A stretch of 30,235 bases of DNA from Steroidobacteraceae bacterium (GTDB taxonomy: Bacteria > Pseudomonadota > Gammaproteobacteria > Steroidobacterales > Steroidobacteraceae). Made by a program: the position numbers and the translations under genes. Every line of letters begins with the position of its first letter. Position 1 is the first letter of the stretch. Positions 1 to 16,464 of the stretch are shown here, one piece after another. The notes beneath the pieces are model-generated. The model saw only the letters and a list, made by a program, of their open reading frames with translations, searched no databases and had not been told where the DNA came from. Location of the stretch: the NCBI GenBank assembly GCA_035571175.1, contig DATMKO010000061.1:1-30235 (forward strand), given 5' to 3'.

Positions 1-2360
1 AGGGCCCGGCTACGGTCGGTGCGCGCCGCGCCCGCGGCGCGATCGGCGGCGATGATCTCCCTCAGCCAATAATCGCGGCCGCTGTAGTCACCCGCCTTTG
101 CCGCCATCGCGCTCAATTTGCTGCGCGCCTCGATGGCAGGATTCAAAGGCTGAGGGAAATGCTTCACGAAGGCCTCGAGCATGGTGCGCGCCTTCGCCGA
201 ATTGCCGGCCTTGTCGTAAAGACTCGCCGCCTGCACGGTGGCTTCGCGCTGCACGTCAACCGATTCCTGCGGCGATGCCGCGATGAGTTCGAATTCGGCG
301 GCGGCTTCGCCGGGGTGATTCGATTCCGAATAAGCCACTGCAAGATTCCTCGTGACATCCGCCTGCAGCGGGCTTTGCGGAAAGTTGCGGCGGAACCCTT
401 CCAGCACGGGGATGGCCCGGTCCCATTGTTTTTCTTTGATGAGCAGCGCCGCGGCATCGAAGTCGGCATTCGCCCGGACTTTCGATGTGGGTGCCAAACT
501 GGCCACGCGCAGGAAATCATCGACGGCCGCCGCGCTGTCGCCCGCCTTGCTCTTCTGTTCTCCTTGCTTGTAGATCGACGCGGCAAGCCGCTCCACGATG
601 ACCGCTCGCTCCGGATCGTTGGGCGCCATCAGGGCCTGCGCATGCGTATAGCCCGCCTCGGCCTTGTCGAATATGCCCTGGTCGAAATTCGAGTTGGCGA
701 TCACCGTCCAGGCGATGCGTTGTTTGCCCGCATCGACTTGCGGCTGCTTCGCAAGCAATGCTTCCGCCGCGGACGTCGCGCGCAGATAGTCCTTGGCGGC
801 ATATAGTTCGGTGGCCGCGCGAGTCAGCACTTGGGCACTTTCCGGGTGAGCGGGAAATGCCGCGGCGAATCGCAAAGAACTGTCGAGAGCCTTGAGATGC
901 AGCGCCGCCTTGGGCTCGCCCGACAGCGTCTCTTCCTGCTTGCCGTAGGCGATGATCGCCGCGTATCCCGCCGCCGCGGCTTTTTCATTATTGCCGTAGT
1001 GGTAGGCAGTGCTTTCATATTCCTGGGCGGCATCCAGATATTGCCGGCTCTCGAACAACGTGTCGGCCAGAAGATAGTTGGTGACCGCGGAATTCGGATC
1101 GTCAGGCCATGATCTCAAGTAGCTGCGATACCATTTGGCTGCCTCTTGGTAATCCGCCACATCCTTGGTGCGCTGCGCCTGGGCGTGATAGTACTGCGCC
1201 ACGTCCTTGAGATTGGTCTGCAATACCGCGACGACTTTCGGTTCGTTCTTTGGGTCGCGTCCCTGCCAATACGGCGTACCGAAACTGTAGTTCTGCACGA
1301 ATTCCCTCTTGCCCTGCAGAACCAGCTGCGGGAAGCCGCCTTTGGAGTACGCTTCGATCGCCTGCATTTCCAGGAGCGGCGCCTTTTCATTGTTGCGGTC
1401 CTGCGAGACGAAGGCGCGGTAGCTGTCGGCGGCATCCGTCCAGCGCTCCTTCTCCATGTACAGATCGCCCAAGCGCGCATACATGAGGTACGAGTACGGG
1501 CGGGACTTGTGGCGCTTGATGAACTCATCGATGGTCTTGGGTCCATCGAGGTAGGAGTAGGTGATCGACATCACTCTGAAGGTATCTTCGACCAATTCGC
1601 GATTGGCCCGGGTCAAGGTATCGATCTCGATCAGCTTGTTTGGATCATTTTTGGCAACCAGTTCCGAATCGAGCACGCCGGCAAAGGAATCCAGGCTGCG
1701 CTCGTTCTCGCCCTGCTTGAACAACGACCAGCCATGTTTGTAAAGACTCTGGTTATAAAACGCGGACGAGGAACCGATTTTGATCACTGACTCGTAGGCG
1801 GCCTGCGCCTTCGGATACGCCTTGTCGGTGAATAGAATCTCGCCGCGGCGAAACTGCGCCTCGTCGATGAAGCGGCTGTTGGGATATTGCGCCACCAAGC
1901 GGTCCAGGGAGGCAAGTCCCTTGTCGGGTTGCGCGTTCAGTTCGTAGGCGCGCGCCAGCTGGTACAGCACCGAGTCGTTGCGCTCGTATTTCGGATATGC
2001 CTTCAGCAGCGCGGTATACAAATGAATGGCTTCGGTTGCGCGTAGGCCTTCGTTGGTGGCGAGTTCCTGCGCGATGCGCTCGGATTCCGAGCTTTCCAGG
2101 TTCAAGTCGCCGAGCCGGCGCAGCGCCTCGGCACGCAGCGCGGCATCGCCCGCGTTCAAATCGAGAAAGCGCTTGTAGCTCTCCATGGTCTTGGCGGCAT
2201 CCACGTTCTTCGGCGGATCGGTATTGACGTCGATCGGCTGATTTTCGAGGTCCTTGATCGTCGCGGGGGGTTTCTGGGTCGCCGCGCCCGAATACGCCGC
2301 TCCAAAAGCCAGCACGGCCAGTATGGCGGCGCCGCATGTCAATTGTGAGACCGAAGCCAT
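1..2360 (-). CDS. Large exported tetratricopeptide-repeat (TPR) protein, truncated at the left edge (at least 786 aa)
   Basis: Not in the ORF track because it has no stop in the window. Translated by hand from ATG 2360, which shares one base with the upstream TGA: MASVSQLTCGAAILAVLAFGAAYSGAATQKPPATIKDL...DSVLYQLARAYELN...DEAQFRRGEILF...QSLYKHGWSLFKQ. The same frame was spot-checked at about 1150 (DYQEAAKWYRSYLRSWPDDP) and at 1-120 (RDYWLREIIAADRAAG). It has a signal peptide and repeated TPR-type helices. Confidence 0.9.
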   Translation of the reverse strand, partial: MASVSQLTCGAAILAVLAFGAAYSGAATQKPPATIKDLENQPIDVNTDPPKNVDAAKTMESYKRFLDLNAGDAALRAEALRRLGDLNLESSESERIAQELATNEGLRATEAIHLYTALLKAYPKYERNDSVLYQLARAYELNAQPDKGLASLDRLVAQYPNSRFIDEAQFRRGEILFTDKAYPKAQAAYESVIKIGSSSAFYNQSLYKHGWSLFKQGENERSLDSFAGVLDSELVAKNDPNKLIEIDTLTRANRELVEDTFRVMSITYSYLDGPKTIDEFIKRHKSRPYSYLMYARLGDLYMEKERWTDAADSYRAFVSQDRNNEKAPLLEMQAIEAYSKGGFPQLVLQGKREFVQNYSFGTPYWQGRDPKNEPKVVAVLQTNLKDVAQYYHAQAQRTKDVADYQEAAKWYRSYLRSWPDDPNSAVTNYLLADTLFESRQYLDAAQEYESTAYHYGNNEKAAAAGYAAIIAYGKQEETLSGEPKAALHLKALDSSLRFAAAFPAHPESAQVLTRAATELYAAKDYLRATSAAEALLAKQPQVDAGKQRIAWTVIANSNFDQGIFDKAEAGYTHAQALMAPNDPERAVIVERLAASIYKQGEQKSKAGDSAAAVDDFLRVASLAPTSKVRANADFDAAALLIKEKQWDRAIPVLEGFRRNFPQSPLQADVTRNLAVAYSESNHPGEAAAEFELIAASPQESVDVQREATVQAASLYDKAGNSAKARTMLEAFVKHFPQPLNPAIEARSKLSAMAAKAGDYSGRDYWLREIIAADRAAGAARTDRSRA

Positions 2361-4252
2361 CACGGTTTGGCCTTCGGCGCATTCGATGCGCGATCATAGA
2401 TCGCGGCCAATTCGTAGCGCGCCTGGATTTGGTAGGCCTCGATGCGCTGTTTTTGACCTTCGAGCTCCTGTATGGCGAGCACTTGCAGGAATCGGTTCTG
2501 CCTCTCCGACACATCGGCCAGGCGCTGCTGCAGATCATCGATGCGGCCGCGTACATCCGAGACACGCGATCCGTACTCGCCGGTGGTCAGCGGCGTACCC
2601 TCGCGAGCCTGCTTGACCAGCACGGCGCGCTTTTGCGTCTCCTTGAGTATGCCCTCGAGTTCCTTGACCGAGCGCCGTTCATTCCACACCCTCGCTTTGA
2701 AGCTCTCCGACAGGCGCCAGTACATGACTCCCTTCATCAGGCGATGCTTTTCGCGCATCTCCGTCAACTCCGGATCGTCCGGGTGCGCCGCGAGATAATC
2801 CTCGATGCGCTTCAATCGCGCCCAGGTTTGCTGCTCCTCGGGCGTGCCCAAAGCCGCCACGTCATTGGATTTCTCGATGTCGTTGATGCGCGATTCGAAA
2901 TCCACGCGTTGCCGGGTCAAGCCGTCGAGATCGGTGGCGCCCAAGACCGCGTCAGCCTTCGGAACGCGTTGCGTATAGGCCGCCTGGCGGGTATCCAGCA
3001 TGTCGTGAAAGGCTGCGATGTCATCGTGCCAGGCGTCCAGATTGCGGCTCATGAAATTGAGTTCGCGATAATTCTTCAAGCCCTCCTGAAATTCATTGCT
3101 CGCCAGGAGTGCGTACAGGTAGCGCGACTCGGGAGCATCGGGCACGCTGGTCAGCTGCCAGTACCAGGTCAGCGTGTCCTTCTTGTCGTCGTTCAGCAGG
3201 CGGTCGAGCATCTTGCCGCTGCGAATCTGTTCGATTGAGTCGTCAATCAGCTTCAATTCGGAATCGAAGGATGCAATCGCCGACTCGTAGCCTTCGGCGG
3301 CCTGCCCGGTGGCGGACAATTGCAAATATGCATAGGGCACGGTGAGAAAGGACTCTTGAACCGCCGAGTCCAGCAAGCTGCGCTTGCGCAATGCAACCCA
3401 TGGCACCAGCGCGCGCTTGAATTCGCCCATGCCGGCGTCCGCCCAGCCGACTCCGAGCAGCGCCTTGCTTGAGTACGGGCCTTCGAGCCGGATTCGCTGC
3501 AGGATGGGCCTGGCTTCAGCCGCCCGCTGCGCCTGCAGCAGCGCAAACCCGAGGGCGAGATTTGCCTTGTCCTTCAGCGCCAACAATTCCGGGCTGCGCG
3601 TCTGCATGGTGCCGACCCGATCAAGATACCTGGCGGCGTCGGCAAGCCGCTCCTTGCGCACCAAAGCTATCCCTAAGTTGAACTGTGCATACGCGGTCCA
3701 GTCCGGCGCACCGTGCCAATTGCTCAAGGCGGCAATCGCCTCGTCATAGCGCCCCTGCTTCATCATCAATTGCGCGATCAGCATGTAACGTTCGGCGTTG
3801 ATGCGCGGATCCATCTTGTCTGAGACCTGCCGCAGCGCGCGCTCCGATTCCTCCAGGTAGCCGCGCTGATACCAGACTTTTCCCAAATAAAACCACGCCC
3901 GGTTGCGCACCGCTTCGGAGGTGTTTTGTTTGAGCAAGGCCTCGAAGATCCTGCCGGCCTCCACGTGCTGGCCCAGCGACAGGTACAAACCACCGAGCAG
4001 CAATTCCGCTTCGCCTTCGGTGTGCGGAATCCGGTTCTGTTCGCGCGCCGCGAGCAGACGGGTAATCGAATCGAAATAATCATCCTGAAAGAAATAAAAC
4101 AGCACATCGCCGTATTGCAGATCCTGCACCACATGCGGCGGCAAACCGTTGGGATCCGGCTTGACGTTTTTCGCCGGCGCGGACGCCAGCGGCAGCGCCA
4201 GCAGCAGCCCGCCGAGGATCAGCGGCCGACGTCTATTAATAACGCGCTGCAC
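2360..4252 (-). CDS. Exported TPR protein with C-terminal coiled-coil region (630 aa)
   Basis: GTG start and signal peptide (RRRPLILGGLLLALPLASAPA). TPR-like repeats (AELLLGGLYLSLG, AWFYLGKVWYQRG, AQFNLGIALV, ANLALGFALL, ALLGVGWA). Helical coiled-coil C-terminal half. Coupled to the neighbouring genes. Confidence 0.88.
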   Translation of the reverse strand: MQRVINRRRPLILGGLLLALPLASAPAKNVKPDPNGLPPHVVQDLQYGDVLFYFFQDDYFDSITRLLAAREQNRIPHTEGEAELLLGGLYLSLGQHVEAGRIFEALLKQNTSEAVRNRAWFYLGKVWYQRGYLEESERALRQVSDKMDPRINAERYMLIAQLMMKQGRYDEAIAALSNWHGAPDWTAYAQFNLGIALVRKERLADAARYLDRVGTMQTRSPELLALKDKANLALGFALLQAQRAAEARPILQRIRLEGPYSSKALLGVGWADAGMGEFKRALVPWVALRKRSLLDSAVQESFLTVPYAYLQLSATGQAAEGYESAIASFDSELKLIDDSIEQIRSGKMLDRLLNDDKKDTLTWYWQLTSVPDAPESRYLYALLASNEFQEGLKNYRELNFMSRNLDAWHDDIAAFHDMLDTRQAAYTQRVPKADAVLGATDLDGLTRQRVDFESRINDIEKSNDVAALGTPEEQQTWARLKRIEDYLAAHPDDPELTEMREKHRLMKGVMYWRLSESFKARVWNERRSVKELEGILKETQKRAVLVKQAREGTPLTTGEYGSRVSDVRGRIDDLQQRLADVSERQNRFLQVLAIQELEGQKQRIEAYQIQARYELAAIYDRASNAPKAKP

Positions 4253-4255
4253 GCA

Positions 4256-4933
4256 TCATTCCCAGTCTTTGATCATGAACTCAGGTTGATGCTTGGGAAC
4301 ACGGTCGGTGATCTTCAGCTCCAGATACTTTGCACCGACGCCCTTGTCGAAACTGATGGTGGCGCCGCGCTTGTAGGCGCGCTCCACCGGACCCTTGCCG
4401 GTAAAAAACGCCACCAGTTCATGTTTGCCGACCTTCAAATTGCCCAAATAAATCTGCTGCACTCCGCCCTTGAGCAGTGCATCGGCTTCGCGCGCGGTGT
4501 ACAGATAATTCTTCACTTCCTTGTTGTCGATCTTGACGGTCACCGAATCCAGCGCGAAGAACGTGCCTACGTCCATCGATATGTAGAGCGCGACCTGGGT
4601 ATTGGCGGGAAACAGCAGTTCTTCTTGCAGAACGAACAGGTCCTTGTTGAGGTCAATGACGTCCTTTTTCAGACTCTGCACTTCCTGATCCAGGGTCTTG
4701 AGTTCGGCCGGCGGCGCATCCGGGGCTGCGGCAGCTGCCGGCGGCGCGGAATCGCTCCCCGGCGTTGGGGCGGCAGCGGCCGGATTTTGCTCGCTCGGCG
4801 CAGCTGCCGGCGGCGTTGCCGGAGCCGCAGCTGCGGGGGCCGCCGCGTTCGCCGCCGACGCGCCTGCGGCCATCCACGCCGCCGACAGCACGCCGAAAAC
4901 CATGATCGACACAACCCGGACTTTAAGATTCAT
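4256..4933 (-). CDS. Secreted protein: signal peptide, Ala/Pro-rich linker, coiled coil and beta-rich C-terminal domain (225 aa)
   Basis: Signal peptide, AAAPAAAAPATPP low-complexity linker, coiled coil LDQEVQSLKKDVIDLNKDLFVLQEELL, then a beta-rich domain. No helix-turn-helix is visible. From memory, homologues are often labelled 'AraC family regulator', which the sequence does not support. Confidence 0.8.
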   Translation of the reverse strand: MNLKVRVVSIMVFGVLSAAWMAAGASAANAAAPAAAAPATPPAAAPSEQNPAAAAPTPGSDSAPPAAAAAPDAPPAELKTLDQEVQSLKKDVIDLNKDLFVLQEELLFPANTQVALYISMDVGTFFALDSVTVKIDNKEVKNYLYTAREADALLKGGVQQIYLGNLKVGKHELVAFFTGKGPVERAYKRGATISFDKGVGAKYLELKITDRVPKHQPEFMIKDWE

Positions 4934-4947
4934 AACTGGCCTATCGT

Positions 4948-5451
4948 TTACTCGCGCAGCAATTCGCGAATTTGATCAAGAAAAATGCGCTCATCACCGC
5001 GCTTGAAGCCGACAATCGAATAGCGCACCACGCCGGCGCGATCCACCAGGATCGTCATGGGCATTTTTTGCAGCAAGTAGTCTTTGCCGATTTCTGATCC
5101 GGTATCGAACAGGATCGGATATGACACTCCCATCGCGACCGCGAACTCCTGCGCACGGCGCAGATCCTCGTCGACCGACACGCCGATCACCACGAGTCCG
5201 GCGCGCTGGTAGGTGGTGTTGATGCGGTCGAGCGCCGACATCTCCTGCCGCGAATCGCCCGCCCAGCGCGCCCAAAAATTAACCAGAACCACCTGGCCGC
5301 GATACTCGGACAAGCGCAAATTTCTGCCATCCAGTCCACGCAGCACAAAATCCGGCGCCTCCTTGCCCACCATGGTCGGCGCGGCCGCAAGCGAGGAGCC
5401 GGCCATTGCGGCGCCGAGGATCAGGCAGCCGAGGAAGAATGCTCTACGCAT
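4948..5451 (-). CDS. TlpA/ResA-like thioredoxin-fold protein lacking both active-site cysteines (AGDS in place of CxxC)
   Basis: APDFVLRGLDG..LRLSEYRGQVVLVNFWARWAGDSRQEM..MPMTILVDRAGVVRY is a typical TlpA scaffold. Codons at 5251-5262 read GCG GGC GAT TCG (A-G-D-S). The only Cys lies in the signal peptide. Confidence 0.88.
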   Translation of the reverse strand: MRRAFFLGCLILGAAMAGSSLAAAPTMVGKEAPDFVLRGLDGRNLRLSEYRGQVVLVNFWARWAGDSRQEMSALDRINTTYQRAGLVVIGVSVDEDLRRAQEFAVAMGVSYPILFDTGSEIGKDYLLQKMPMTILVDRAGVVRYSIVGFKRGDERIFLDQIRELLRE

Positions 5452-5499
5452 GCGGTGCTAAATTCAAGCTGACGCCGAAGCGCCGCGATTCATCAATCA

Positions 5500-5585
5500 C
5501 GCTGGTAACCCCGCTGTCCTAGGAACACCCCGTAGACCGGAAGCTTTGCGCCCTCGCCTTTCAGCGAGTTTGCCCTGATCAGACC
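5500..5585 (-). ncRNA. c-di-GMP-I (GEMM) riboswitch
   Basis: The minus strand reads GGUCUGAUCAGGGCAAACUCGCU-GAAA-GGCGAGGGCGCAAAGCUUCCGGUCUACGGGGUGUUCCUAGGACAGCGGGGUUACCAGCG. It aligns by eye to the V. cholerae Vc2 aptamer: P2 stem CUCGCU/GGCGAG with GAAA tetraloop, GCGCAAAG junction and AGCGGGGUUACC 3' end. Ligand-contact equivalents G20 (5574), A47 (5547) and C92 (5505) and the C44-G83 pair are conserved. P1 can form G14-C93, U13-A94 and C12-G95. It lies about 50 nt upstream of ATG 5451. Confidence 0.95.
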
Positions 5586-5861: not shown

Positions 5862-7481
5862 CTAGGCAACTAATCCATTGACGAGACCGGCCAGCGGTTG
5901 CCATGCAACCAGCGGTTCGAGCGCGGTGCCGCTGCCCAGGGTGTTGTTCAAGTTCGGCGCGGGCCACAGTGTCGGCCACGCGGATATCGCGTTGGCACTG
6001 TGCAGCGCCATGTAGTTGAGCACCACCATCTGCACCAGGTTGGGTACGTTGTTGCCGGCGGGGCTGCCGGTGGTGTTCTGCGAACCGTCGGGATTGAAGT
6101 TGCCGATCTGCAAACTCATTTCCGGATTGGATTGCGCGGACACCGCCCTTCCCGCGGGATTGAAGACCAGGAAATAGGTCGCCGCGACGCTTTGGTTGTC
6201 GGCCGTCCAGACGCCCTTGCCGCGCCCGCCAACGGAGTTGTCGATCATGCCGTTGCTGGCGAGCGAGCCGTCGCTGAATACATAGATCATCACCGGTTTG
6301 CCCACGCGGTTGGCATATTCCAGAACCGCGCCGATGCAATTGCCCAGGTTCAAATCCTTGGCCTCACCGTCCATGCGGTTGCCGCTGTGATAGTCGAAGC
6401 CGCCCATTTCGATGGTGCCGGCGGCGGCATTGCCGTCGATCACGAGTTTCATGACTGCCGCGGTCGCTTGATAGGACGAGTTGGCCTGGTATTCGGCCGT
6501 TTGGAAGATGCCGCTGGCGCCCACGATGTTCGGATCCACGTCGGGATTCACGGCGGACGGACTGTTGTACTTGTCGACGATGTAGGCCGACTTCGTATAG
6601 CCGCAGGCCTCGATTCCGGCCGACCCGATTGCTGCGGTATTCAATGCCGCATTATTCGGATACGCCGTCACCACGCCGTACTTGGCATCGCTGATGCGCT
6701 TCATGGACTCCAGCACATTGGTGACGTCGGAAGAATTGGGCAGCAGCGTGCTCAACTGTCCGGTGCTGACCAAACCCTTGCTGTCCTGCGAACTGGAGAT
6801 TTTGGTCGGCGTCGCCGACGGGATGACCATGGTGGGCGGTGACATGGAGTTGCCACCCGACATGGAACTATCCGTGCCGATGAGATTCAGCAGGCCGCCG
6901 CGCGCGCCCGCTTGATAGATGCCGTACATCGGGTTGTGCGGATTGGTATTGGTATCGTTTTGCGACAGCGCAGGAATGATCGTGCCGGTCGTGCCCGCCA
7001 TGGCCGCGGCGCTGGCCCGCAGCTTCATGCCGCGCAAATGCGCGCTGTCCGAGTGATAGCGCAAGCCGAAGCTCGCGTCGACGAAACTACCCGAGGCGCT
7101 GGCATTCGGCACCATGGTTCCGGGCAGTCCCAGTTTGCTGTAGCCTGCGACCGAGAGGAAATCCAGCTGCCCGGCAGGACCGCCGACCAGCACATTGGAT
7201 CCGGCGATATTGCCGCCGCCGGCGAGGTCGAAGCAGATGAACGGGATCTTGCCGGCGCCGGTGGTGATGTTGCAGGCGGTTACCGCGGCCTGGATATCCG
7301 CAGCGAGCGTCGCGCGAGCAGATCGCGGGTAGGCCAGCATACCGGCCAGCGTCGGTGCGACCACCGTCGCCGCGCCGGTGATGAAGCCCTGCGCGAGGAA
7401 CTCGCGGCGCGTGCGTGGCCGTGGGTGATCCTGGTGACGGAACGGCCCGTTGGTACCCGCCGTAACTGATTTCTTGCTCAT
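5862..7481 (-). CDS. Tat-exported DUF1501-like protein of unknown function (539 aa)
   Basis: Twin-arginine motif RTRREFLAQG with a signal ending SARA. The motifs PFICFDLAGG, IEMGGFDYH and VMIYVFSDG resemble the DUF1501 motifs (xFLxGG, GGWDTH, vvxsEFGR). A purine-rich SD (GGAAGAGG) precedes ATG 7481. Confidence 0.65.
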   Translation of the reverse strand: MSKKSVTAGTNGPFRHQDHPRPRTRREFLAQGFITGAATVVAPTLAGMLAYPRSARATLAADIQAAVTACNITTGAGKIPFICFDLAGGGNIAGSNVLVGGPAGQLDFLSVAGYSKLGLPGTMVPNASASGSFVDASFGLRYHSDSAHLRGMKLRASAAAMAGTTGTIIPALSQNDTNTNPHNPMYGIYQAGARGGLLNLIGTDSSMSGGNSMSPPTMVIPSATPTKISSSQDSKGLVSTGQLSTLLPNSSDVTNVLESMKRISDAKYGVVTAYPNNAALNTAAIGSAGIEACGYTKSAYIVDKYNSPSAVNPDVDPNIVGASGIFQTAEYQANSSYQATAAVMKLVIDGNAAAGTIEMGGFDYHSGNRMDGEAKDLNLGNCIGAVLEYANRVGKPVMIYVFSDGSLASNGMIDNSVGGRGKGVWTADNQSVAATYFLVFNPAGRAVSAQSNPEMSLQIGNFNPDGSQNTTGSPAGNNVPNLVQMVVLNYMALHSANAISAWPTLWPAPNLNNTLGSGTALEPLVAWQPLAGLVNGLVA

Positions 7482-7506
7482 AAGTTTAAGACCTCTTCCG
7501 TCTTGC

Positions 7507-10032
7507 TTAGTAGATCAACATGTCGGCGCTGCCGAAGGCCGTCGCGCAGGCCGCGGCGGTGACCGCCTGTACCCGTGCGGTGGTCGTGCAAGCGGTGCTG
7601 CTGCAAAGATTGGTTATCAACTTGTCGAGCTCGCCGCTGGCTCCTGTCATGGTCGAGGCCGCCGGCTGGCTTTGCAGACCGCTGCCGAGCACCTTGGCCG
7701 CGAGCGGGCCGGTGACCGAGTCGATACCGGCCTGCGTCCCGAACAATCCAGCACTCAAGGTCACGCCCGGGAACATGGCCGAAACCAATGCCGGGTTGTT
7801 GACCATTTCATTGCAGTACTGGATGGCGATCTGCGCGATGCCGACCTGTTGCGCCGAGGAGAAGCTCTCCAGCGTCGGAATCGCCGGCAGCTGCTGCTGT
7901 ACGGCCTGATATGTCGCGACCACGTTCGGATCCGAAGTCGCCACGCCCGTGAGCGCCGACAGCGTCGAATTGACCGATGCAAAGGTCTTGATGCCGATAT
8001 CGGCGACCACCGGACCCGGCGAGGGCGCCGGCGCGGTCGGCGTCGGCTCGACCACCACATCGGTCTGGCTGCCCAGCACGTCGAAGGTAAGGAAGAACTG
8101 GTCGCTGGCAGGCCCGCTCTGCAGCGCAATCACGGTGCCGATGGGCGACAGCACCTCGCCCGTTGGCGTGTAGTTGGCCGCAGTCACGGTGGTATTCAGC
8201 GGTATGTAGGCCTGGCCCACTGACGGGATCGTGCCGTTCAAGCCGATGCGTATGCCCTGCACCGGAATGCTGGGCAGGTTGGCCGAGGTAACCGTCGGAT
8301 CCAGCGAGATGAAAGTCGGCTGGTAGAACAGGTAGCTGTAGCTGTCGTACTGGCTGACCGTGAACATCACATAGGACTGCGACACGTTGGTGACGCTCGC
8401 CACATTGAACAGCATGTAGTAGCGCTCGCCAACGCCCGCGTTGAAGTTCTGCATCACCTGCGCAGCCGACATGGCGCGGCTATGGATGGCGACGAACTTG
8501 ATGAGTCCCGTCCAGGACCGATCGCCGGACACGCCATTGCCGAGCACCAGCGCGAAGGTGCTGTCCCAGTTGGAGATGGTGCCGCCCTTCTGTGCATCAG
8601 CCGGACCGACGTTCACGCCGTTGACGTAGATCATGCGGCCGTTGACCGGATCGTACGTCAGCACCACGTGCTGCAAAGACGCCTGCAAAGCCATGGCAGC
8701 ATTCGGAGTCTGCAGCTGCGGCATGCCGGTCAGCGCCGTTGTCGAGGCGCGCATCAGGAAGTCATAGTCCTGATTGGTTTGACCCAGCGTGAAGTTACGC
8801 GTGGTGTCACCGCCCTCATAACTGACCATGTAGGAATTGTCGACCGCCACCACCGCGGGCGCCACCCAGGCCTCGACCGAGAACTCGCCCGTCGCCTGGA
8901 TGAGATTGTAAAGCTTCGAGCTCGAGGCGGTCGTGGCCTGCGCCTTGCCGCCGCTGCCGACATTGATACCCCAACCGCCGGCCAGGGTGACGTTGCCCGA
9001 GATCGTGAGATCCGCAGACGGGTCGATGCCGCTGGTGTCGAACGTGGTGTTGTTGACGATCGACTGGAACTCGTACTTGGCGATCGTGTCGGCATCGTAG
9101 CGGCTCGCGCCGCTGGCGATGGTGCCCTGCGTGAGCGTTATCGCCTTGCTGACGACCAGATTAGGATCGATGTTGGACGGGGTCAGCATTTGCGCGAATG
9201 CCTGAATCTGCGCCAGCATCTGCGCTGCATCGGAAGCGCAGTTGTCCCAACAGTTGTGGTTGTCGGTAAGCAGCCGCTGATACAGGCGTGAATTCACGCC
9301 GCACGACAAGGGAGTCGTGGTGCCGTTGCTGTTGCCGGCGACGAACGGACTGCAGCCGGTGAAGTCGATTTTCGGAATCGCTGCCGGATAAGCAATCAAC
9401 AGATTGGGATCGGCGTGATACGGCTGCTGCTCCACGGAAGGATCGGCCGTCGTCGAATGGCAGCGCACACAGTACTTGCTGGTCAGCGTGTACACCGTGT
9501 TCTGGTAGTCGGTGTAGGACGCCGGGAAGTTCAGGCTCTGTCCGACGGTTTGCACCGGCGGCGCCACCAATTGCACCGTGGTTGAGGAGGTGGCTCCCGT
9601 GGCATTGGCCCAGTTGGTGATCCAAGTGGTCAAAATCTGGCCGCAGGCGTTAGGGTCGGCGAGCCAGCAGTTGTGACCGCCGCTCACCTTGATAACCATG
9701 GTTGACTGCGAGGGTTGCGCCAGGTTGACGACGGTGTTGGCCTGCACGTAGGCGAGATTCACATCGTCGCTGCGCGCAAAATTCGGCATCTGCGCCGGGG
9801 TGGTGGCGTTGTGGCACTGTCCGCAGCGGTTTTGCACGCGGATGTTGTTCCACAGATTGATTTCGAACGCCTGGACGTCCGCCGTCGCCGGCGCAGGCCC
9901 CGTGTAGGTGCTCGCCGTTGCCGTCTGCGAGGGCGCAACGTTGGCCACGGTTGGAGCGCCGGCGCCGCCGCAAGCGCTTAAGGCGAATGACGCTGCGAGA
10001 GCGATCAAGCCGGTAATGCGTGTAGCGTTCAT
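7507..10032 (-). CDS. Lipoprotein with two c-type heme domains and a LamG/concanavalin-A-like domain (about 841 aa)
   Basis: Lipobox LSA-C. CxxCH motifs CGQCH (9811-9825) and CVRCH (9457-9471), each followed downstream by HNCW...C. LamG_3 signatures GEFSVEAWV, LQHVVLTYD..MIYVNG and WTGLIKFVAIHSRAMS. The start was moved from TTG 10038 to ATG 10032, which follows a GGGGA SD. Confidence 0.85.
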   Translation of the reverse strand: MNATRITGLIALAASFALSACGGAGAPTVANVAPSQTATASTYTGPAPATADVQAFEINLWNNIRVQNRCGQCHNATTPAQMPNFARSDDVNLAYVQANTVVNLAQPSQSTMVIKVSGGHNCWLADPNACGQILTTWITNWANATGATSSTTVQLVAPPVQTVGQSLNFPASYTDYQNTVYTLTSKYCVRCHSTTADPSVEQQPYHADPNLLIAYPAAIPKIDFTGCSPFVAGNSNGTTTPLSCGVNSRLYQRLLTDNHNCWDNCASDAAQMLAQIQAFAQMLTPSNIDPNLVVSKAITLTQGTIASGASRYDADTIAKYEFQSIVNNTTFDTSGIDPSADLTISGNVTLAGGWGINVGSGGKAQATTASSSKLYNLIQATGEFSVEAWVAPAVVAVDNSYMVSYEGGDTTRNFTLGQTNQDYDFLMRASTTALTGMPQLQTPNAAMALQASLQHVVLTYDPVNGRMIYVNGVNVGPADAQKGGTISNWDSTFALVLGNGVSGDRSWTGLIKFVAIHSRAMSAAQVMQNFNAGVGERYYMLFNVASVTNVSQSYVMFTVSQYDSYSYLFYQPTFISLDPTVTSANLPSIPVQGIRIGLNGTIPSVGQAYIPLNTTVTAANYTPTGEVLSPIGTVIALQSGPASDQFFLTFDVLGSQTDVVVEPTPTAPAPSPGPVVADIGIKTFASVNSTLSALTGVATSDPNVVATYQAVQQQLPAIPTLESFSSAQQVGIAQIAIQYCNEMVNNPALVSAMFPGVTLSAGLFGTQAGIDSVTGPLAAKVLGSGLQSQPAASTMTGASGELDKLITNLCSSTACTTTARVQAVTAAACATAFGSADMLIY

Positions 10033-10034
10033 GC

Positions 10035-11249
10035 TCAATTCCCCATGCAGTAAGCGGCGCCTTCAGCGAAGGGTTGCCGCAGCGAATAGTTGTGCGCTTG
10101 GAACGAAGTGATCATCGAATTGATCTGAGTGAAGTCGGCGGCGGAATTCGGCGCGCGCAGACACACGGTCTTGAACACCCGGGTGACCTGGCAGCTGGTG
10201 AATGCCGCGCTGCTCTCCAGTTCCTGGCCCATGGACTTGGCACCGTTGCCGCTGCCCGGAAGGGCCGCGCTCCATCCCAGCACATAGTTCGGTCCGGTGC
10301 GCCAGTGGTTGTTCCAGCTGTCGTCCGGGGTGTTGAACCCTTGCGGGAAATTGGTGTTGTTAATATGGTACTTCGGCTGTGTTTGGCCGGCGGTGTACTG
10401 GATCTGGCCGACGGTGTCGGTCATGGTCGGGTCGGTGCCGGTGAAGTTGTAGAAGGCAAAGGCCTGCGCCATCGGATCCATGCCGCTGTGACAGCCGATG
10501 CAGTTGTTCAGGAACAGAGTGCTGACGCCGCCCGGGCTGCGCGTCACGTCCTGGCGAATTCGATCCGGTGGCCGCGTGATGTCCATCACGGTCGGCAGGT
10601 CGTTACACAGATGGTTCAACATCGTGAAGCGGAACATCGCCCGGTTTGTGCCGTTGATGAAGAACGCGCTGGCCGCGCCGCGCGTGGTCATGATGCCGGC
10701 GGTCGCCGCAGCAGGGATGCCGGTCAGCGCCGATTGAGTGCTTGAAACCAGGTGGACGCTGAGGTCGACATTGTTGGCGTCCAGTGCGTCGTACATGGCG
10801 TTGTTCGCCGGCGAATACGTTCCCTCGCCGGACTTGCCGTCGCCGACGTAAACCAAATCGGCGCTGAGCAAGGTATTAAAAGGAACGTTGTCGCGCACCA
10901 TGCCGACCACGGTCGCGGTGTAATCGTTGAGCGAGACGAACACCGATTGATCGCGGTTGGTCCAGGGCGCCGCCATGTTGCGGATGGTGTTGTTGTAGAA
11001 CGCCGGGTCGTTGGTGGCGATGAGTGCGGCGGCTACCGGGCTGGCCGCGCTCGTCATCTGCGACAGCTGCGCCGCGGTGGGCGGCACACCGGCGATGCGG
11101 TTGTAGATTCGCGTCGCTTGGTCGGCGTTGGGTGCCTGCGCGAGCGCCTGCCCGCCAAGCAGTGCTACAGCGCCTGCACACGCGGCTGCGCGCACAGCGA
11201 GCGTTACAAGATGCGGCGTGGCTGCCGCGCGGCGTGCAATCTGCCTCAT
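10035..11249 (-). CDS. Exported monoheme c-type cytochrome, DUF1588/DUF1585 (PSD)-like (about 404 aa)
   Basis: Signal peptide ending GGQALA. CIGCHSGMDPMAQAF (CxxCH at 10488-10502) and AGIMTTRG..NRAMFRFTMLNHLC resemble DUF1588. The C-terminal FTSCQVTRVFKTVCLRAP..FQAHNYSLRQPF resembles DUF1585. The start was moved to ATG 11249, which follows a GGAGA SD. Confidence 0.72.
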   Translation of the reverse strand: MRQIARRAAATPHLVTLAVRAAACAGAVALLGGQALAQAPNADQATRIYNRIAGVPPTAAQLSQMTSAASPVAAALIATNDPAFYNNTIRNMAAPWTNRDQSVFVSLNDYTATVVGMVRDNVPFNTLLSADLVYVGDGKSGEGTYSPANNAMYDALDANNVDLSVHLVSSTQSALTGIPAAATAGIMTTRGAASAFFINGTNRAMFRFTMLNHLCNDLPTVMDITRPPDRIRQDVTRSPGGVSTLFLNNCIGCHSGMDPMAQAFAFYNFTGTDPTMTDTVGQIQYTAGQTQPKYHINNTNFPQGFNTPDDSWNNHWRTGPNYVLGWSAALPGSGNGAKSMGQELESSAAFTSCQVTRVFKTVCLRAPNSAADFTQINSMITSFQAHNYSLRQPFAEGAAYCMGN

Positions 11250-11606
11250 TGGTTTCTCCATCCCGTTGTTCATATGCACATCCACTCGCGTGAGTTGTCG
11301 GTTCGACTGGGTGCGAATATACGCAGCCCACAAGGCCCCCAGTAATGTCTCATCCAGACGACGTCGGCGTTTCGCGACAGTACGACCATTAAGAGTGCGC
11401 CTATATCCTGAGCCTCGATTGCCGCACGGTCTGGCACGGCGTGCACAGAGAAACGGATATGGACAAGTTCTTCTGTGAGTGCGTTAACAGTATGCGTATG
11501 CGCGTCGAACGAAGATGCGCATATGAGACCGATTAAGTTCAATGATGCCGTCTTCACGCGTGCCGGCCGATCGCTGAACCGAAACATTGTGCATAGGTAG
11601 CAACAA

Positions 11607-14334: not shown

Positions 14335-15069
14335 ATGCGTCGTCTGCTCGCGCTGGTGCTGCTGCTGCAGGCGTTACATGTAGGACTAGCGGAAGCCGCC
14401 GACAAGTACCTGGTACTCGTGGTCACCGACCCTTACCTGGAAATGCACTCCGGGCCGGGGCGCGGCTTTCCGATCGTATACGTGATTGGACGGGATGAAC
14501 TCGTCACGGTGCTGTACAGCCGCACCGACTGGTTCAAAGTTCGCGCACCGCGTGGACAAGAAGGCTGGGTGCGCCGCTCCGACCTGTCGCGCACGCTGTT
14601 GGCCAGCGGCGAACCGGCGCCGATACCGCCATATCCCGATTTCGCCAGTCATCGCTGGGAGGTCGGCGCCGGTTACGGCGTTTACAACCGCGAGAATCTG
14701 GTCACCACTTACGCCGACTTCGGCCTTACTTCCAGCCTCGACGTCGAGTTTGTCGTGCAGCAGGCATTCGGTACTCTGGACAACCGCTACATCGCGACCA
14801 TTGGATTGCGGCACACCTTTGTACCCGAATGGAAGTGGTTCTCACCGACGGCTGGAATAGGCACCGGCTATCAGTTTATCCAAGATGTAGTTCCACCCGC
14901 GCCGCTGCAGAACAATAACGAGATGGCCTACGTCTCGCTGGGCGCCCGCGGTTTCATCACCCGTCGCTTCATGTGGCGCGCCGATTGGCGCCACTATGTC
15001 GTCTTCAACAATCAGAATGTGTATGAGGATCTAGAAGAATGGAAATTAGACTTAGCAGTATTCTTCTAG
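14335..15069 (+). CDS. Bacterial SH3 domain plus outer-membrane beta-barrel protein (244 aa)
   Basis: Signal peptide and SH3-like segment (LEMHSGPGRGFPIV..WFKVR..EGWV). Alternating aromatic/hydrophobic strands follow, with a terminal Phe beta-signal (LAVFF). Confidence 0.8.
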   Translation: MRRLLALVLLLQALHVGLAEAADKYLVLVVTDPYLEMHSGPGRGFPIVYVIGRDELVTVLYSRTDWFKVRAPRGQEGWVRRSDLSRTLLASGEPAPIPPYPDFASHRWEVGAGYGVYNRENLVTTYADFGLTSSLDVEFVVQQAFGTLDNRYIATIGLRHTFVPEWKWFSPTAGIGTGYQFIQDVVPPAPLQNNNEMAYVSLGARGFITRRFMWRADWRHYVVFNNQNVYEDLEEWKLDLAVFF

Positions 15070-15710
15070 TCGCGGCGCTGCTGTCCGGCTGCAGCTGGTT
15101 TCACCGCGGCAACAAGGGTCCGCCCGAAGTGGTTGCGGAGGAGCCGCAGGGCGAGCCGTCGATCGTCGAGCCGCAGGTGACCCGCCGCGTGGTAAAGACG
15201 CCCAAGATCAAAGCCAAGGACTTCGAGGTGGGCGCGTATTTTGGTGCGCTCAGCATTCAGGATTTCGGCACCAATCCGGTTTACGGGGTGCGCGGCGCGT
15301 ACCACGTATCGGAGGACATTTTCCTCGAAGGCTACGTGGGCCGCTCCAAAGCCGGAACCACCAGTCTCGAGGACGTGTTTCCGGATATCACGGTGGTCAG
15401 CAACTCTGGGAGGTATTTCACGTACTACGACCTGGACGTAGGCTACAACGTACTGCCGGGCGAGATCTTTCTGGGACGCGGACGCGCGTTCAATTCGGCC
15501 CTGTACGTGACGGTCGGCATGGGCGATGTGAAATTTGCCGATAAAGACCAGTTCGCGTTGAACTTTGGGGTAGGCGAGCGGCTGCTGGTAACCGATTGGA
15601 TGGCGATTCATCTGGATGTACGAGACCACATCTTCGAAACCGATCTGACCGGCCGCACCAAGAATGTCGACAACATCGAAGCCACACTGGGCTTAACCTT
15701 TTTCTTCTGA
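15039..15710 (+). CDS. Lipoprotein-signal outer-membrane beta-barrel protein, OmpA-like 8-stranded class, TIGR04565-like (223 aa)
   Basis: Lipobox LSG-C. Amphipathic strands FEVGAYFG, YGVRGAYH, LYVTVGMG and FALNFGVGER. The C-terminus is ATLGLTFFF. Confidence 0.8.
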   Translation: MEIRLSSILLVAALLSGCSWFHRGNKGPPEVVAEEPQGEPSIVEPQVTRRVVKTPKIKAKDFEVGAYFGALSIQDFGTNPVYGVRGAYHVSEDIFLEGYVGRSKAGTTSLEDVFPDITVVSNSGRYFTYYDLDVGYNVLPGEIFLGRGRAFNSALYVTVGMGDVKFADKDQFALNFGVGERLLVTDWMAIHLDVRDHIFETDLTGRTKNVDNIEATLGLTFFF

Positions 15711-15726
15711 TCAGGAGTAATGATCA

Positions 15727-16236
15727 ATGCATATTGCCAAATCAAGTCTATTGAAACGCTGCGCGATGGCGGCGCTCGTGCTCGCCTCGTCCGCGTTCGC
15801 GGCCGGCGGCGATGCCGCGGGTCCCGCACCTTCCTTCACGTTGACCACCCTCGCCGGCCAGCCCGGCGGCCTCGGCGAGTACAAGGGTCAGGTCGTGATG
15901 GTTAACTTCTGGGCGACCTGGTGCGGACCCTGCCAGCAGGAAATGCCGCTGTTGGACCAAATGTACAAGAAGTACAAACCGGCGGGATTTACCCTGATCG
16001 GCGTCAACGTCGACAAGGAGTCGCCCGCGGTCAAGGAATTGTTGGCGCGCAAACCCGTGAGCTTCCCGGTGCTGCTGGATCCCGCCAACCAGGTGAGCAA
16101 GGCCTACCACGTCGATGAGATGCCGAGCTCGGTCATCATCGATCGCAAGGGTCAGATTCGCTACGTGCACCGTGGCTACAAGCCCGGCGACGAAAACGAC
16201 TATCAAGATCTCATTCGCAAGCTCATCCGGGAATAG
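15727..16236 (+). CDS. TlpA-family thiol:disulfide oxidoreductase (169 aa)
   Basis: Signal peptide, NFWATWCGPCQQEM active site, cis-Pro motif EMPSSVIID and an AGGAG SD upstream. Confidence 0.92.
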   Translation: MHIAKSSLLKRCAMAALVLASSAFAAGGDAAGPAPSFTLTTLAGQPGGLGEYKGQVVMVNFWATWCGPCQQEMPLLDQMYKKYKPAGFTLIGVNVDKESPAVKELLARKPVSFPVLLDPANQVSKAYHVDEMPSSVIIDRKGQIRYVHRGYKPGDENDYQDLIRKLIRE

Positions 16237-16239
16237 CCC

Positions 16240-16461
16240 ATGCGCTGCCAACCGCTCTTGGCGTTGAGCGCCTTGCTGCTGCTCTCCGCGTGCAACATCC
16301 AGCCCTGGGTGAAACCGTATGAGCGCGACCGCCTCGCGGATCCGATCATGGCCTGGGACCGCGACGCCATCTCCGGCGCCTACCTGGATCACATTCGTGA
16401 ATCCAGAGAGGGATCACGCGGCGCCACCGGCGGAGCGGGCGGCGGCTGCGGCTGCAACTGA
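16240..16461 (+). CDS. DUF4266 small lipoprotein (73 aa)
   Basis: Lipobox LSA-C, VKPYERDRLADPIM motif and C-terminal GGAGGGCGCN, all characteristic of DUF4266. Confidence 0.88.
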   Translation: MRCQPLLALSALLLLSACNIQPWVKPYERDRLADPIMAWDRDAISGAYLDHIRESREGSRGATGGAGGGCGCN

Positions 16462-16464
16462 CGT

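What the first reader, a model, noticed from the sequence alone, without database searches (positions are those of the whole stretch)
4948..5451. Cysteine-less TlpA pseudo-thioredoxin (AGDS) heading the riboswitch-controlled operon, with an intact paralogue 10 kb away
Seen: the WCxxC site is replaced by WAGDS, with both Cys lost (5251-5262), while the ORF, signal peptide and the rest of the fold are intact. The paralogue at 15727 keeps WCGPC. Inference: this is a redox-dead thioredoxin repurposed as a chaperone, substrate-binding or heme/cofactor-handling subunit, or a competitor of the active TlpA. The two paralogues bracket the heme cluster.
Basis: partly seen in the sequence, partly recalled or inferred. 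Interest (0 to 1): 0.65.

Follow-up and report, generated by a model that had tools for sequence, protein, structure and literature searches.

The report
Redox-dead thioredoxin heading envelope-machine operon
A secreted thioredoxin-like protein has lost both catalytic cysteines yet is kept under selection in more than 65 soil bacterial species, so it probably now serves as a non-redox part of a motor-driven cell-envelope machine.

Summary
ORF 4948-5451(-) is a 167-aa exported TlpA/ResA-fold protein whose WCxxC motif reads WAGDS, and four independent soil metagenome assemblies carry the same codons.

It is not decaying:
- All 65 closest species-level orthologues lack the cysteines and keep synteny.
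- dN/dS is about 0.16-0.19.
- It diverges at the same rate as its operon neighbours.
- The predicted fold is intact (pLDDT 89; TM 0.95 to a solved TlpA/DsbE-like structure).

The gene heads an 11-gene operon whose order and sizes match the gammaproteobacterial Agl-Glt "core complex" (three TPR proteins, a TolQ/TolR/TolR motor, a GltG-type TonB-like protein). That operon, not the heme cluster, is its conserved partner.

The intact paralogue at 15727 sits in an OMP-TlpA-DUF4266-DUF3570 thiol/flavin module, which in other lineages lies directly upstream of the same operon.

Most genera of the family (30 of 35 sampled) keep CxxC in the operon copy. Five have lost it, probably three or four separate times.

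Best reading: a duplicated reductase became a redox-dead but selected binding or assembly subunit. The partner is unknown.

First readers of this scan noted the same thing on two other genomes. It is a new variant of a known kind, of moderate interest.

The parts
4948..5451 (-). Cys-less TlpA/ResA-fold protein, 167 aa, with a signal-peptide-like N-terminus. It is the first gene of the operon.
5251..5262 (-). Codons for A64-G65-D66-S67, which replace the CxxC motif.
5059..5061 (-). Codon of P131, the conserved cis-Pro-loop proline of the thioredoxin fold. It is kept in 99% of Cys-less orthologues.
5501..5584 (-). c-di-GMP-I riboswitch aptamer, 50 nt upstream of the start codon.
   Evidence: 71.2 bits, E 2.7e-12
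4256..4933 (-). p225: exported protein with a Pro/Ala-rich linker, a long helix and a beta-sandwich. It is the most conserved protein of the operon and has no Pfam family. It starts 14 nt after the trx stop codon.
2360..4252 (-). GltC-like TPR protein, 630 aa.
   Evidence: size and order match PMC3169522 suppl. 5
3..2363 (-). GltD-like TPR protein, cut by the contig end (942 aa in L009).
15727..16236 (+). Intact TlpA paralogue (WCGPC).
15039..15710 (+). Outer-membrane beta-barrel gene of the paralogue's module.
16240..16461 (+). DUF4266 small secreted protein of the paralogue's module.
   Evidence: 79.3 bits
16465..17640 (+). DUF3570 protein of the paralogue's module. This family is flavinylated by ApbE in other bacteria.
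   Evidence: 148 bits; PMC8238504

Best explanation
SHOWN. This is an exported TlpA/ResA-fold protein with an intact fold and no cysteine in the mature chain, so it cannot exchange thiols and disulfides. It is kept under purifying selection in at least 65 species.

It is the first gene of an 11-gene operon: trx, p225, GltC-like, GltD-like and GltE-like TPR proteins, p180, a TolQ-like protein, two TolR-like proteins, a GltG-type TonB-like protein, and p115. The operon matches the gammaproteobacterial Agl-Glt 'core complex', and in this genome a c-di-GMP-I riboswitch precedes it.

The same position holds a CxxC-bearing TlpA in sister families and in most genera of the same family. The family also always carries a second, strictly CxxC-conserving TlpA in an OMP-TlpA-DUF4266-DUF3570 module about 10 kb away.

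INFERRED. The two copies arose by duplication of the TlpA that, in many other Gammaproteobacteria, sits in that redox module directly upstream of p225. With the redox job covered by the module copy, the operon copy lost its cysteines several times. It was retained each time because it has a second, non-catalytic job.

That job is probably to bind a periplasmic partner through the old substrate groove (cis-Pro loop plus subfamily-specific surface residues). It would then act as an adaptor or assembly factor of the TolQR-powered TPR machine, made together with it when c-di-GMP permits. The partner is not identified.
For: Fold and missing cysteines.

Selection:
- NG86 dN/dS is 0.16 for the mature part and 0.19 for the whole protein, over about 1,550 pairs.
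- In the same six genomes, the Cys-less copy has dN/dS 0.18 and the intact paralogue 0.105.
- Median identity among 65 orthologues is 76.0% for trx and 76.9% for the GltC-like neighbour; Spearman rho 0.83.

Active site versus the rest of the protein:
- Constraint is relaxed only at the old active site. Position 64 is A/D/E, 66 is D/P/E/N/A/V/L and 67 is S/T/A.
- F59, W60, R62, P131, N44, R46, S48, E49, R51, Y125, D137, R138 and R143 stay 97-100% conserved. Except for R62 they are shared with the CxxC forms.

Operon identity:
- Gene order and sizes match PMC3169522 suppl. 5.
- The TonB-like protein hits the AgmX/PglI C-terminal domain NF033768 at 62.3 bits against a cut-off of 40. The best hit of the 283-aa TPR protein is GltE.

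The ancestral state was CxxC:
- 18 of 18 other-family loci that have the gene keep the cysteine pair; one of them reads CxxxC.
- 18 of 20 p225-anchored loci of the same family keep it.
- 30 of 35 genera of the family keep it.

Repeated loss: the tree needs 4 changes, and the AU test rejects a single Cys-less clade at p = 0.028.

The paralogue keeps WC[GAV]PC in 30 of 30 loci, always in the OMP-TlpA-DUF4266-DUF3570 module. That module sits directly upstream of p225 in about 14 of 29 class-level loci and in L162.
Against: - There is no interaction, expression or phenotype evidence.
- The operon copy is not obligatory everywhere. No TlpA gene lies next to p225 in the f8 and f10 loci, and it is truncated in two genomes (L172, 97 aa; L180, 108 aa).
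- It evolves about 1.8 times faster than the intact paralogue.
- The riboswitch is missing in at least 10 of the 65 Cys-less loci, so c-di-GMP control is not an integral feature.
- The one concrete partner lead, co-loss of a conserved Cys in the TonB-like protein, failed on wider sampling.
- NG86 estimates at dS of about 1 in GC-rich genes are rough.
Confidence: 0.6

Rival explanations
1. Regulated decoy. The dead copy competes with the intact TlpA paralogue for its partners (DUF4266's CXC tail, DUF3570, or a DsbD-type donor). That would throttle the thiol/flavin relay when c-di-GMP switches the operon on.
For: - The two copies are 43% identical and share the groove residues.
- The modules are physically linked in other lineages.
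- The riboswitch lies directly upstream.
Against: - The riboswitch is absent in at least 10 Cys-less loci. It is also present upstream of CxxC forms in other families, so it is not tied to the dead state.
- In L162 the only TlpA of the module is itself Cys-less, which leaves nothing to compete with.
- There are no binding data.
Confidence: 0.15
2. New chemistry or ligand binding at the remodelled site. R62, D66, S67 and R68 would form a non-thiol catalytic or small-molecule/metal site.
For: R62 is invariant in the g1/g10 clade and new relative to most CxxC forms. G-D-S is the commonest triplet.
Against: - The candidate residues vary freely among orthologues under the same selection: S67 is S/T/A, D66 is D/P/E/N/A/V/L, and W63-A64 become S-D in many.
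- The other Cys-less lineages read WAGPS or WSGPS.
- No match to another enzyme family was found.
Confidence: 0.1
3. A slowly decaying relic. The gene is dispensable and survives only because it is short and sits between the riboswitch and the next gene.
For: - It evolves faster than the paralogue.
- The gene is absent or truncated in a few lineages.
- It has lost its active site repeatedly.
Against: - dN/dS is 0.16-0.19.
- 64 of the 65 orthologue frames are full length with no internal stop; L038 is cut by its contig end at residue 154.
- The rate of change equals that of the TPR neighbours.
- Fold-core and surface residues are 97-100% conserved.
Confidence: 0.07
4. A sequencing or assembly artefact at 5251-5262.
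For: None found.
Against: Four independent metagenome assemblies carry identical codons. All 65 orthologues and 119 of the 120 nearest database proteins lack CxxC; one did not match the search pattern.
Confidence: 0.01

Closest known systems
TlpA / ResA / CcmG (DsbE) periplasmic thiol-disulfide oxidoreductases
   Same: - Same fold (TM 0.95 to 3gl3; ResA and CcmG follow).
- Same Pfam families.
- Same export signal, cis-Pro loop and F-W-A-x-W context.
   Different: - Both catalytic cysteines are replaced, so no thiol chemistry is possible.
- Scores fall below every NCBIfam equivalog cut-off.
- It has no link to cytochrome c or CuA maturation genes. Instead it heads a TPR/TolQR operon.
Redox-inactive thioredoxin-fold modules: PDI b/b' domains, ERp29, and E. 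coli thioredoxin as a redox-independent T7 DNA polymerase subunit (own knowledge). Also the 'Other' class of the thioredoxin-fold atlas, where neither Cys is present (PMC2757866).
   Same: A thioredoxin fold kept for binding rather than for electron transfer. Loss of both cysteines is a known outcome within the fold class.
   Different: Those cases are eukaryotic ER proteins or a cytoplasmic host factor. This one is a bacterial periplasmic TlpA-type duplicate tied to one envelope machine, and its partner is unknown.
Gammaproteobacterial Agl-Glt 'core complex' (Luciano et al. 2011, PMC3169522)
   Same: The order and sizes of the GltC-, GltD- and GltE-like genes, an extra gene, AglR, AglQ, AglS and GltG match. 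The AgmX/PglI C-terminal domain is present.
   Different: The paper's main text does not mention a thioredoxin (0 occurrences). Its supplements mention one only once, in the annotation of an unrelated Anaeromyxobacter zinc-finger protein. It does not describe a p225-type gene. Here trx and p225 precede the core, and a c-di-GMP riboswitch precedes both. The function of the core complex in Gammaproteobacteria is still unknown.
DsbD-linked ApbE / DUF3570 / thioredoxin-like / DUF4266 clusters (Meheust et al. 2021, PMC8238504)
   Same: The window's intact paralogue sits in a TlpA-DUF4266-DUF3570 arrangement.
   Different: The Cys-less gene is not in that module in this genome. The module's thioredoxin-like protein in the paper is PF13899, whereas here it is a TlpA/Redoxin type. 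Adjacency of ApbE or DsbD was not examined here.

Membership tests
TlpA/ResA-type thiol-disulfide oxidoreductase | Thioredoxin fold with the TlpA-type N-terminal hairpin and central insert | tested here: met
   AF2 pLDDT 89.4. Foldseek TM 0.95, rmsd 1.1 A to 3gl3, followed by ResA, CcmG and Etrx. Pfam AhpC-TSA 87.7 bits and Redoxin 76 bits.
TlpA/ResA-type thiol-disulfide oxidoreductase | CxxC active-site dithiol | tested here: not met
   The motif is WAGDS and the mature protein has no Cys. The codons are confirmed in independent assemblies.
TlpA/ResA-type thiol-disulfide oxidoreductase | Conserved cis-Pro loop facing the active site | tested here: met
   P131 is kept in 99% of Cys-less and 100% of CxxC orthologues. 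The cis conformation itself was not examined.
TlpA/ResA-type thiol-disulfide oxidoreductase | Reaches a curated equivalog score (ResA, TlpA, DsbE) | tested here: not met
   ResA 93.9 against 170, TlpA 58.7 against 230, DsbE 49.5 against 123.
TlpA/ResA-type thiol-disulfide oxidoreductase | Export to the periplasm | tested here: inconclusive
   The N-terminus has two Arg residues, a hydrophobic stretch and an A-x-A site (read from the sequence). No signal-peptide predictor was available.
Agl-Glt core complex operon (Gammaproteobacteria) | Clustered GltC-, GltD- and GltE-like TPR genes, then TolQ-like, two TolR-like and GltG-like genes, in that order | tested here: met
   compared with PMC3169522 suppl. 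5: 630/942/283 aa, an extra gene, then 235/168/164/310 aa.
Agl-Glt core complex operon (Gammaproteobacteria) | GltG/GltJ-type C-terminal domain in the TonB-like protein | tested here: met
   NF033768 at 62.3 bits against a cut-off of 40.
Agl-Glt core complex operon (Gammaproteobacteria) | Equivalog-level match to the M. xanthus GltE or GltG proteins | tested here: not met
   GltE 48 bits against 225; GltG 38 bits against 650. The proteins are relatives, not equivalogs.
c-di-GMP-I riboswitch | Rfam RF01051 covariance model reaches its gathering score, full length | tested here: met
   71.2 bits against 35, model positions 1-87. Ligand binding was not tested.
DUF3570/DUF4266/thioredoxin-like redox module (for the paralogue) | Adjacent thioredoxin-like, DUF4266 and DUF3570 genes | tested here: met
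   (30 of 30 family loci).
DUF3570/DUF4266/thioredoxin-like redox module (for the paralogue) | Cognate ApbE and DsbD-type donor | not tested
   Neither was looked for in the window or the genome.

The most novel reading that the evidence does not exclude
The TlpA-type protein is a genuine non-redox subunit that docks the DUF4266/DUF3570 thiol-flavin outer-membrane module onto the TolQR-powered Glt-core TPR machine. The repeated, independent loss of CxxC with continued purifying selection would then show that binding, not electron transfer, is its selected function. It would also mean that the long-unexplained gammaproteobacterial Glt 'core complex' works together with an envelope redox module.
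Probability: 0.3. Interest if true: 0.7.

Novelty: new variant of a known kind. Interest (0 to 1): 0.5.

Why it matters
- It is a clean natural example of a periplasmic enzyme turned pseudo-enzyme. There are several independent losses, an intact paralogue as an internal control, and CxxC-bearing orthologues in the same operon position for comparison.
- Public annotation calls these proteins 'TlpA family protein disulfide reductase' or 'peroxiredoxin'. That cannot be right for the Cys-less forms.
- The context work gives a lead on the function of the gammaproteobacterial Agl-Glt core complex, which has been unknown since 2011. The operon is regularly preceded by a thioredoxin and a DUF4266/DUF3570 redox module, and sometimes by a c-di-GMP riboswitch.

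Tried and rejected
1. Co-loss of a substrate cysteine.
- The GltG-type TonB-like protein has one conserved Cys in its C-terminal domain, in the column G-x-V-T-x-C-x-V-V-S-S-E-L.
- It was Cys in 14 of 15 CxxC operons and Ala in 18 of 18 g1/g10 Cys-less operons. That suggested the dedicated reductase and its target lost their thiols together.
- Wider sampling broke the pattern. The Cys-less genera g77, g82 and g93 keep the TonB Cys (for g93 the trx and TonB data come from different genomes of the genus).
- Genera g6 and g2 lost it while keeping CxxC. Loci without an adjacent trx keep it.
- I reject this as a rule. It is a single event.

2. One origin of the Cys-less state.
- A first tree, restricted to close homologues, showed one clade.
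- That set was biased, because one of the search patterns of the search for related loci contained the Cys-less motif itself.
- Sampling anchored on p225 and on the paralogue showed that most of the family keeps CxxC and that there are further Cys-less genera.

3. Riboswitch as a hallmark of the Cys-less form.
- It is absent from at least 10 Cys-less loci.
- It is present upstream of CxxC forms in families f4, f15 and f16.

4. Heme link. No operon protein carries CxxCH, and the neighbouring heme cluster is adjacent only within this family.

5. Function of p225 from structure. The model is confident for the beta-sandwich, but no PDB match reached E <= 0.001.

6. Literature searches for a described Cys-less TlpA, or for this operon with a riboswitch, found nothing specific.

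Full report
**Observation**

ORF 4948-5451 on the minus strand encodes 167 residues. It scores above the Pfam cut-offs for AhpC-TSA and Redoxin. Its nearest NCBIfam models are ResA, TlpA and DsbE, but all fall below their equivalog cut-offs.

The only cysteine, C9, lies in the signal-peptide-like N-terminus and is not conserved.

The paralogue at 15727-16236 keeps WCGPC and is 43% identical. A full-length c-di-GMP-I aptamer lies at 5501-5584(-), 50 nt upstream of the start codon (71.2 bits).

Contigs from four independent soil metagenome runs cover 5038-5521 with no change at the motif. The AlphaFold2 model is confident (pLDDT 89.4). It superposes on solved TlpA/DsbE/ResA/CcmG structures, with TM 0.95 and rmsd 1.1 A to 3gl3.

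**Is it decaying?**

No.
- The 120 nearest database proteins (78-99% identical) all show Cys-less variants of the motif: ARWAGDS, TRSDGDS, ARWEGDS and others.
- A scan of one genome per species returned 65 Steroidobacteraceae-type loci at 60-98% identity. All lack CxxC and all share the same neighbours. Of these, 63 have no cysteine beyond residue 26.
- Pairwise NG86 dN/dS within this set is 0.19 for the whole protein and 0.16 for the mature part.
- In six genomes where both copies could be compared, the Cys-less copy has dN/dS 0.18 and the intact paralogue 0.105. It evolves about 1.8 times faster but is clearly constrained.
- Its median identity among orthologues (76.0%) equals that of the neighbouring GltC-like protein (76.9%), and the two co-vary (rho 0.83).

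Constraint is relaxed only at the former active site. Position 64 is A/D/E, 66 is D/P/E/N/A/V/L and 67 is S/T/A. By contrast F59, W60, R62, the cis-Pro-loop proline P131 and a set of surface residues (N44, R46, S48, E49, R51, Y125, D137, R138, R143) stay 97-100% conserved. Except for R62 these are shared with the CxxC forms.

**What operon is this?**

Downstream of the gene, on the same strand, lie:
- p225 (4256-4933), starting 14 nt after the trx stop;
- a 630-aa TPR protein;
- a TPR protein cut by the contig end.

A 98%-identical relative on a 4.8-Mb contig (L009/L109) shows the rest: TPR 942 aa, TPR 283 aa, p180, a MotA/TolQ/ExbB protein, two ExbD/TolR proteins, a 310-aa TonB-like protein and p115. 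Unrelated genes follow.

This order and these sizes match the 'core complex' of the Myxococcus Agl-Glt gliding machinery that Luciano et al. found in Gammaproteobacteria. There it runs GltC about 550-690 aa, GltD about 940-1016 aa, GltE about 160-263 aa, one extra gene, AglR, AglQ, AglS, and GltG about 321-334 aa (PMC3169522, suppl. 5).

Sequence supports the match. The TonB-like protein reaches the cut-off of the AgmX/PglI C-terminal domain model (62.3 bits against 40). The best NCBIfam hit of the 283-aa TPR protein is GltE, though below the equivalog level. The paper's main text does not mention a thioredoxin (0 occurrences). Its supplements mention one only once, in the annotation of an unrelated Anaeromyxobacter zinc-finger protein.

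**How old is the association, and what was the ancestral state?**

I used p225 as an unbiased anchor. It is the most conserved protein of the operon and occurs in 204 of 301 genomes of the order.
- In other families, a TlpA-type gene lies within 2.5 kb upstream of p225 in 18 of 20 loci. All 18 keep the cysteine pair; one reads CxxxC.
- Within the window's own family, 18 of 20 p225-anchored loci also keep CxxC (mostly F-W-S-S-R-C-x-x-C). Only genus g10 was Cys-less in that sample.

So the first, homology-driven set was biased. One of its search patterns contained the Cys-less motif itself.

Further sampling raised the count to 35 genera. Thirty keep CxxC and five lack it: g1, the window's genus, and g10, g77, g82 and g93. 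The last three read WAGPS or WSGPS.

With the motif columns removed, the g1/g10 sequences sit on one side of a strongly supported branch (100/99). The other Cys-less genera fall among CxxC sequences. The tree then needs four changes, and the AU test rejects a single Cys-less clade (p = 0.028). The support is moderate, so I read this as probably three or four independent losses, and at least two.

**The paralogue**

The intact copy lies in an outer-membrane barrel - TlpA - DUF4266 - DUF3570 module. This arrangement belongs to the DsbD-linked ApbE/DUF3570/thioredoxin-like/DUF4266 clusters of Meheust et al. There DUF3570 is flavinylated and DUF4266 carries a C-terminal CXC motif (PMC8238504).

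The paralogue is present in all 40 genera sampled, typically about 10 kb from the operon copy on the same contig. It keeps WC[GAV]PC in 30 of 30 loci, in Cys-less and CxxC lineages alike.

Across the class, p225 is nearly always followed by the GltC-like gene (28 of 29 loci). In about 14 of 29 loci it is directly preceded by DUF4266-DUF3570. In one such genome (L162) the module's only TlpA is itself Cys-less (WSGSS), and a second Cys-less example (WAGAS) sits in the same module type.

The simplest history has three steps. A single TlpA once lay between the redox module and the p225/Glt genes. It was duplicated in this family when the two blocks were separated by the heme-protein cluster. The copy that stayed in front of p225 then became free to lose its thiols.

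**Mechanism**

What is shown:
- The fold is intact and no thiol chemistry is possible.
- Purifying selection persists.
- Constraint is relaxed only at the dead site.
- The groove and surface residues shared with the catalytic relatives are kept.
- The gene is stably linked to the TPR/TolQR operon.
- The active site was lost repeatedly in the one family that has a spare copy.

What I infer: the protein keeps a binding function of its ancestor and serves as an adaptor or assembly factor for the envelope machine. In this genome it is made together with that machine under c-di-GMP control.

I could not identify the partner. The one concrete lead failed. A conserved lone cysteine in the GltG-type C-terminal domain is Ala in all 18 g1/g10 operons and Cys in 14 of 15 CxxC operons. 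But g77, g82 and g93 keep that cysteine, g6 and g2 lost it while keeping CxxC, and loci without an adjacent trx keep it.

The riboswitch is also not integral to the dead state.
- It is found in full or in part in 48 of the 65 close loci by BLAST.
- It is absent by Rfam in 10 of them.
- It was not detected upstream of the CxxC-type copies in the 18 loci of this family that were scanned.
- It is present upstream of CxxC copies in three other families.

**Rivals**

- A regulated decoy of the intact paralogue remains possible but has no support of its own.
- New chemistry at R62/D66/S67 is unlikely, because those positions vary freely.
- A drifting relic is contradicted by the selection data.
- An artefact is excluded.

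**Comparison and novelty**

Thioredoxin folds without either cysteine are a recognised class (PMC2757866). Redox-independent uses of the fold are textbook knowledge (PDI b' domains; thioredoxin in T7 DNA polymerase; own knowledge). My searches found no description of a Cys-less TlpA tied to the Glt core operon. Public records name these proteins as reductases or peroxiredoxins.

First readers of this scan noted the same phenomenon on two other genomes, with WAGDT and WEGDS variants. I class it as a new variant of a known kind, of moderate interest. The link between the DUF4266/DUF3570 redox module and the Glt core operon may be the more useful lead.

**Caveats**

- All genomes involved are metagenome-assembled.
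- The dN/dS values are pairwise NG86 at dS of about 1 in GC-rich genes.
- The trees rest on about 160 columns.
- Two genomes flagged as unpublished (G544, G498) enter only the tallies.

Noticed in passing
window 4256-4933 (-): p225 is the most conserved protein of the operon: median 86% identity among close orthologues and 55-70% across the order. It has no Pfam or NCBIfam family. It occurs in 204 of 301 genomes of the order and 41 of 250 class-level genomes, nearly always directly followed by the GltC-like gene (28 of 29 loci). The AF2 model shows a signal peptide, a disordered Pro/Ala linker, one long helix and a confident 8-strand beta-sandwich, with no significant PDB match.
   Followed up: partly
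window 15039-17640 (+); L162:407-9464; L219-L245: In about 14 of 29 gammaproteobacterial loci the OMP-TlpA-DUF4266-DUF3570 thiol/flavin module lies directly upstream of p225 and the GltC/GltD-like genes. This suggests that the Glt 'core complex', whose function is unknown, works with an envelope redox module.
   Followed up: partly
L109:3116-4543 (+); G000:C458:252-1181 (-): The second TolR-like protein carries one conserved periplasmic Cys (about position 144-150) in nearly all operons. The GltG-type TonB-like protein carries one conserved Cys in its AgmX/PglI C-terminal domain in most lineages, replaced by Ala in genera g1 and g10. Lone conserved periplasmic cysteines in a motor and its transducer are unexplained.
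   Followed up: partly
window 5862-11333 (-): The three genes upstream of the riboswitch are p432, p843 (two CxxCH motifs plus a LamG domain) and the Tat-signal p539. They keep this position next to the trx gene throughout the family, at 46-99% identity, in both CxxC and Cys-less lineages. They are absent from that position in other families.
   Followed up: partly
L091, L092, L103, L110 against window 5501-5584: The aptamer upstream of the orthologous operon is classified as c-di-GMP-I in some lineages and as the c-di-GMP-I-GGC variant (RF03167) in others, and it is missing in many. The riboswitch has been gained, lost or remodelled often at this one locus.
   Followed up: no
L172 (G373) and L180 (G138): The operon-linked trx frame is only 97 aa and 108 aa in these two genomes. 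This could be a real truncation or an assembly fault. G138 has two copies of the operon.
   Followed up: no
L053 (record titled Luteitalea sp.): This 6.5-kb contig matches the query proteins at the same identities as the Steroidobacteraceae locus L052 and has the same synteny. It is probably a mis-binned contig in an Acidobacteriota MAG.
   Followed up: no
window 11607-14330 (+): A 907-aa protein with a hydrazine-synthase-alpha middle domain (58 bits) and a PD40 repeat lies between the two TlpA copies. It was not examined further.
   Followed up: no
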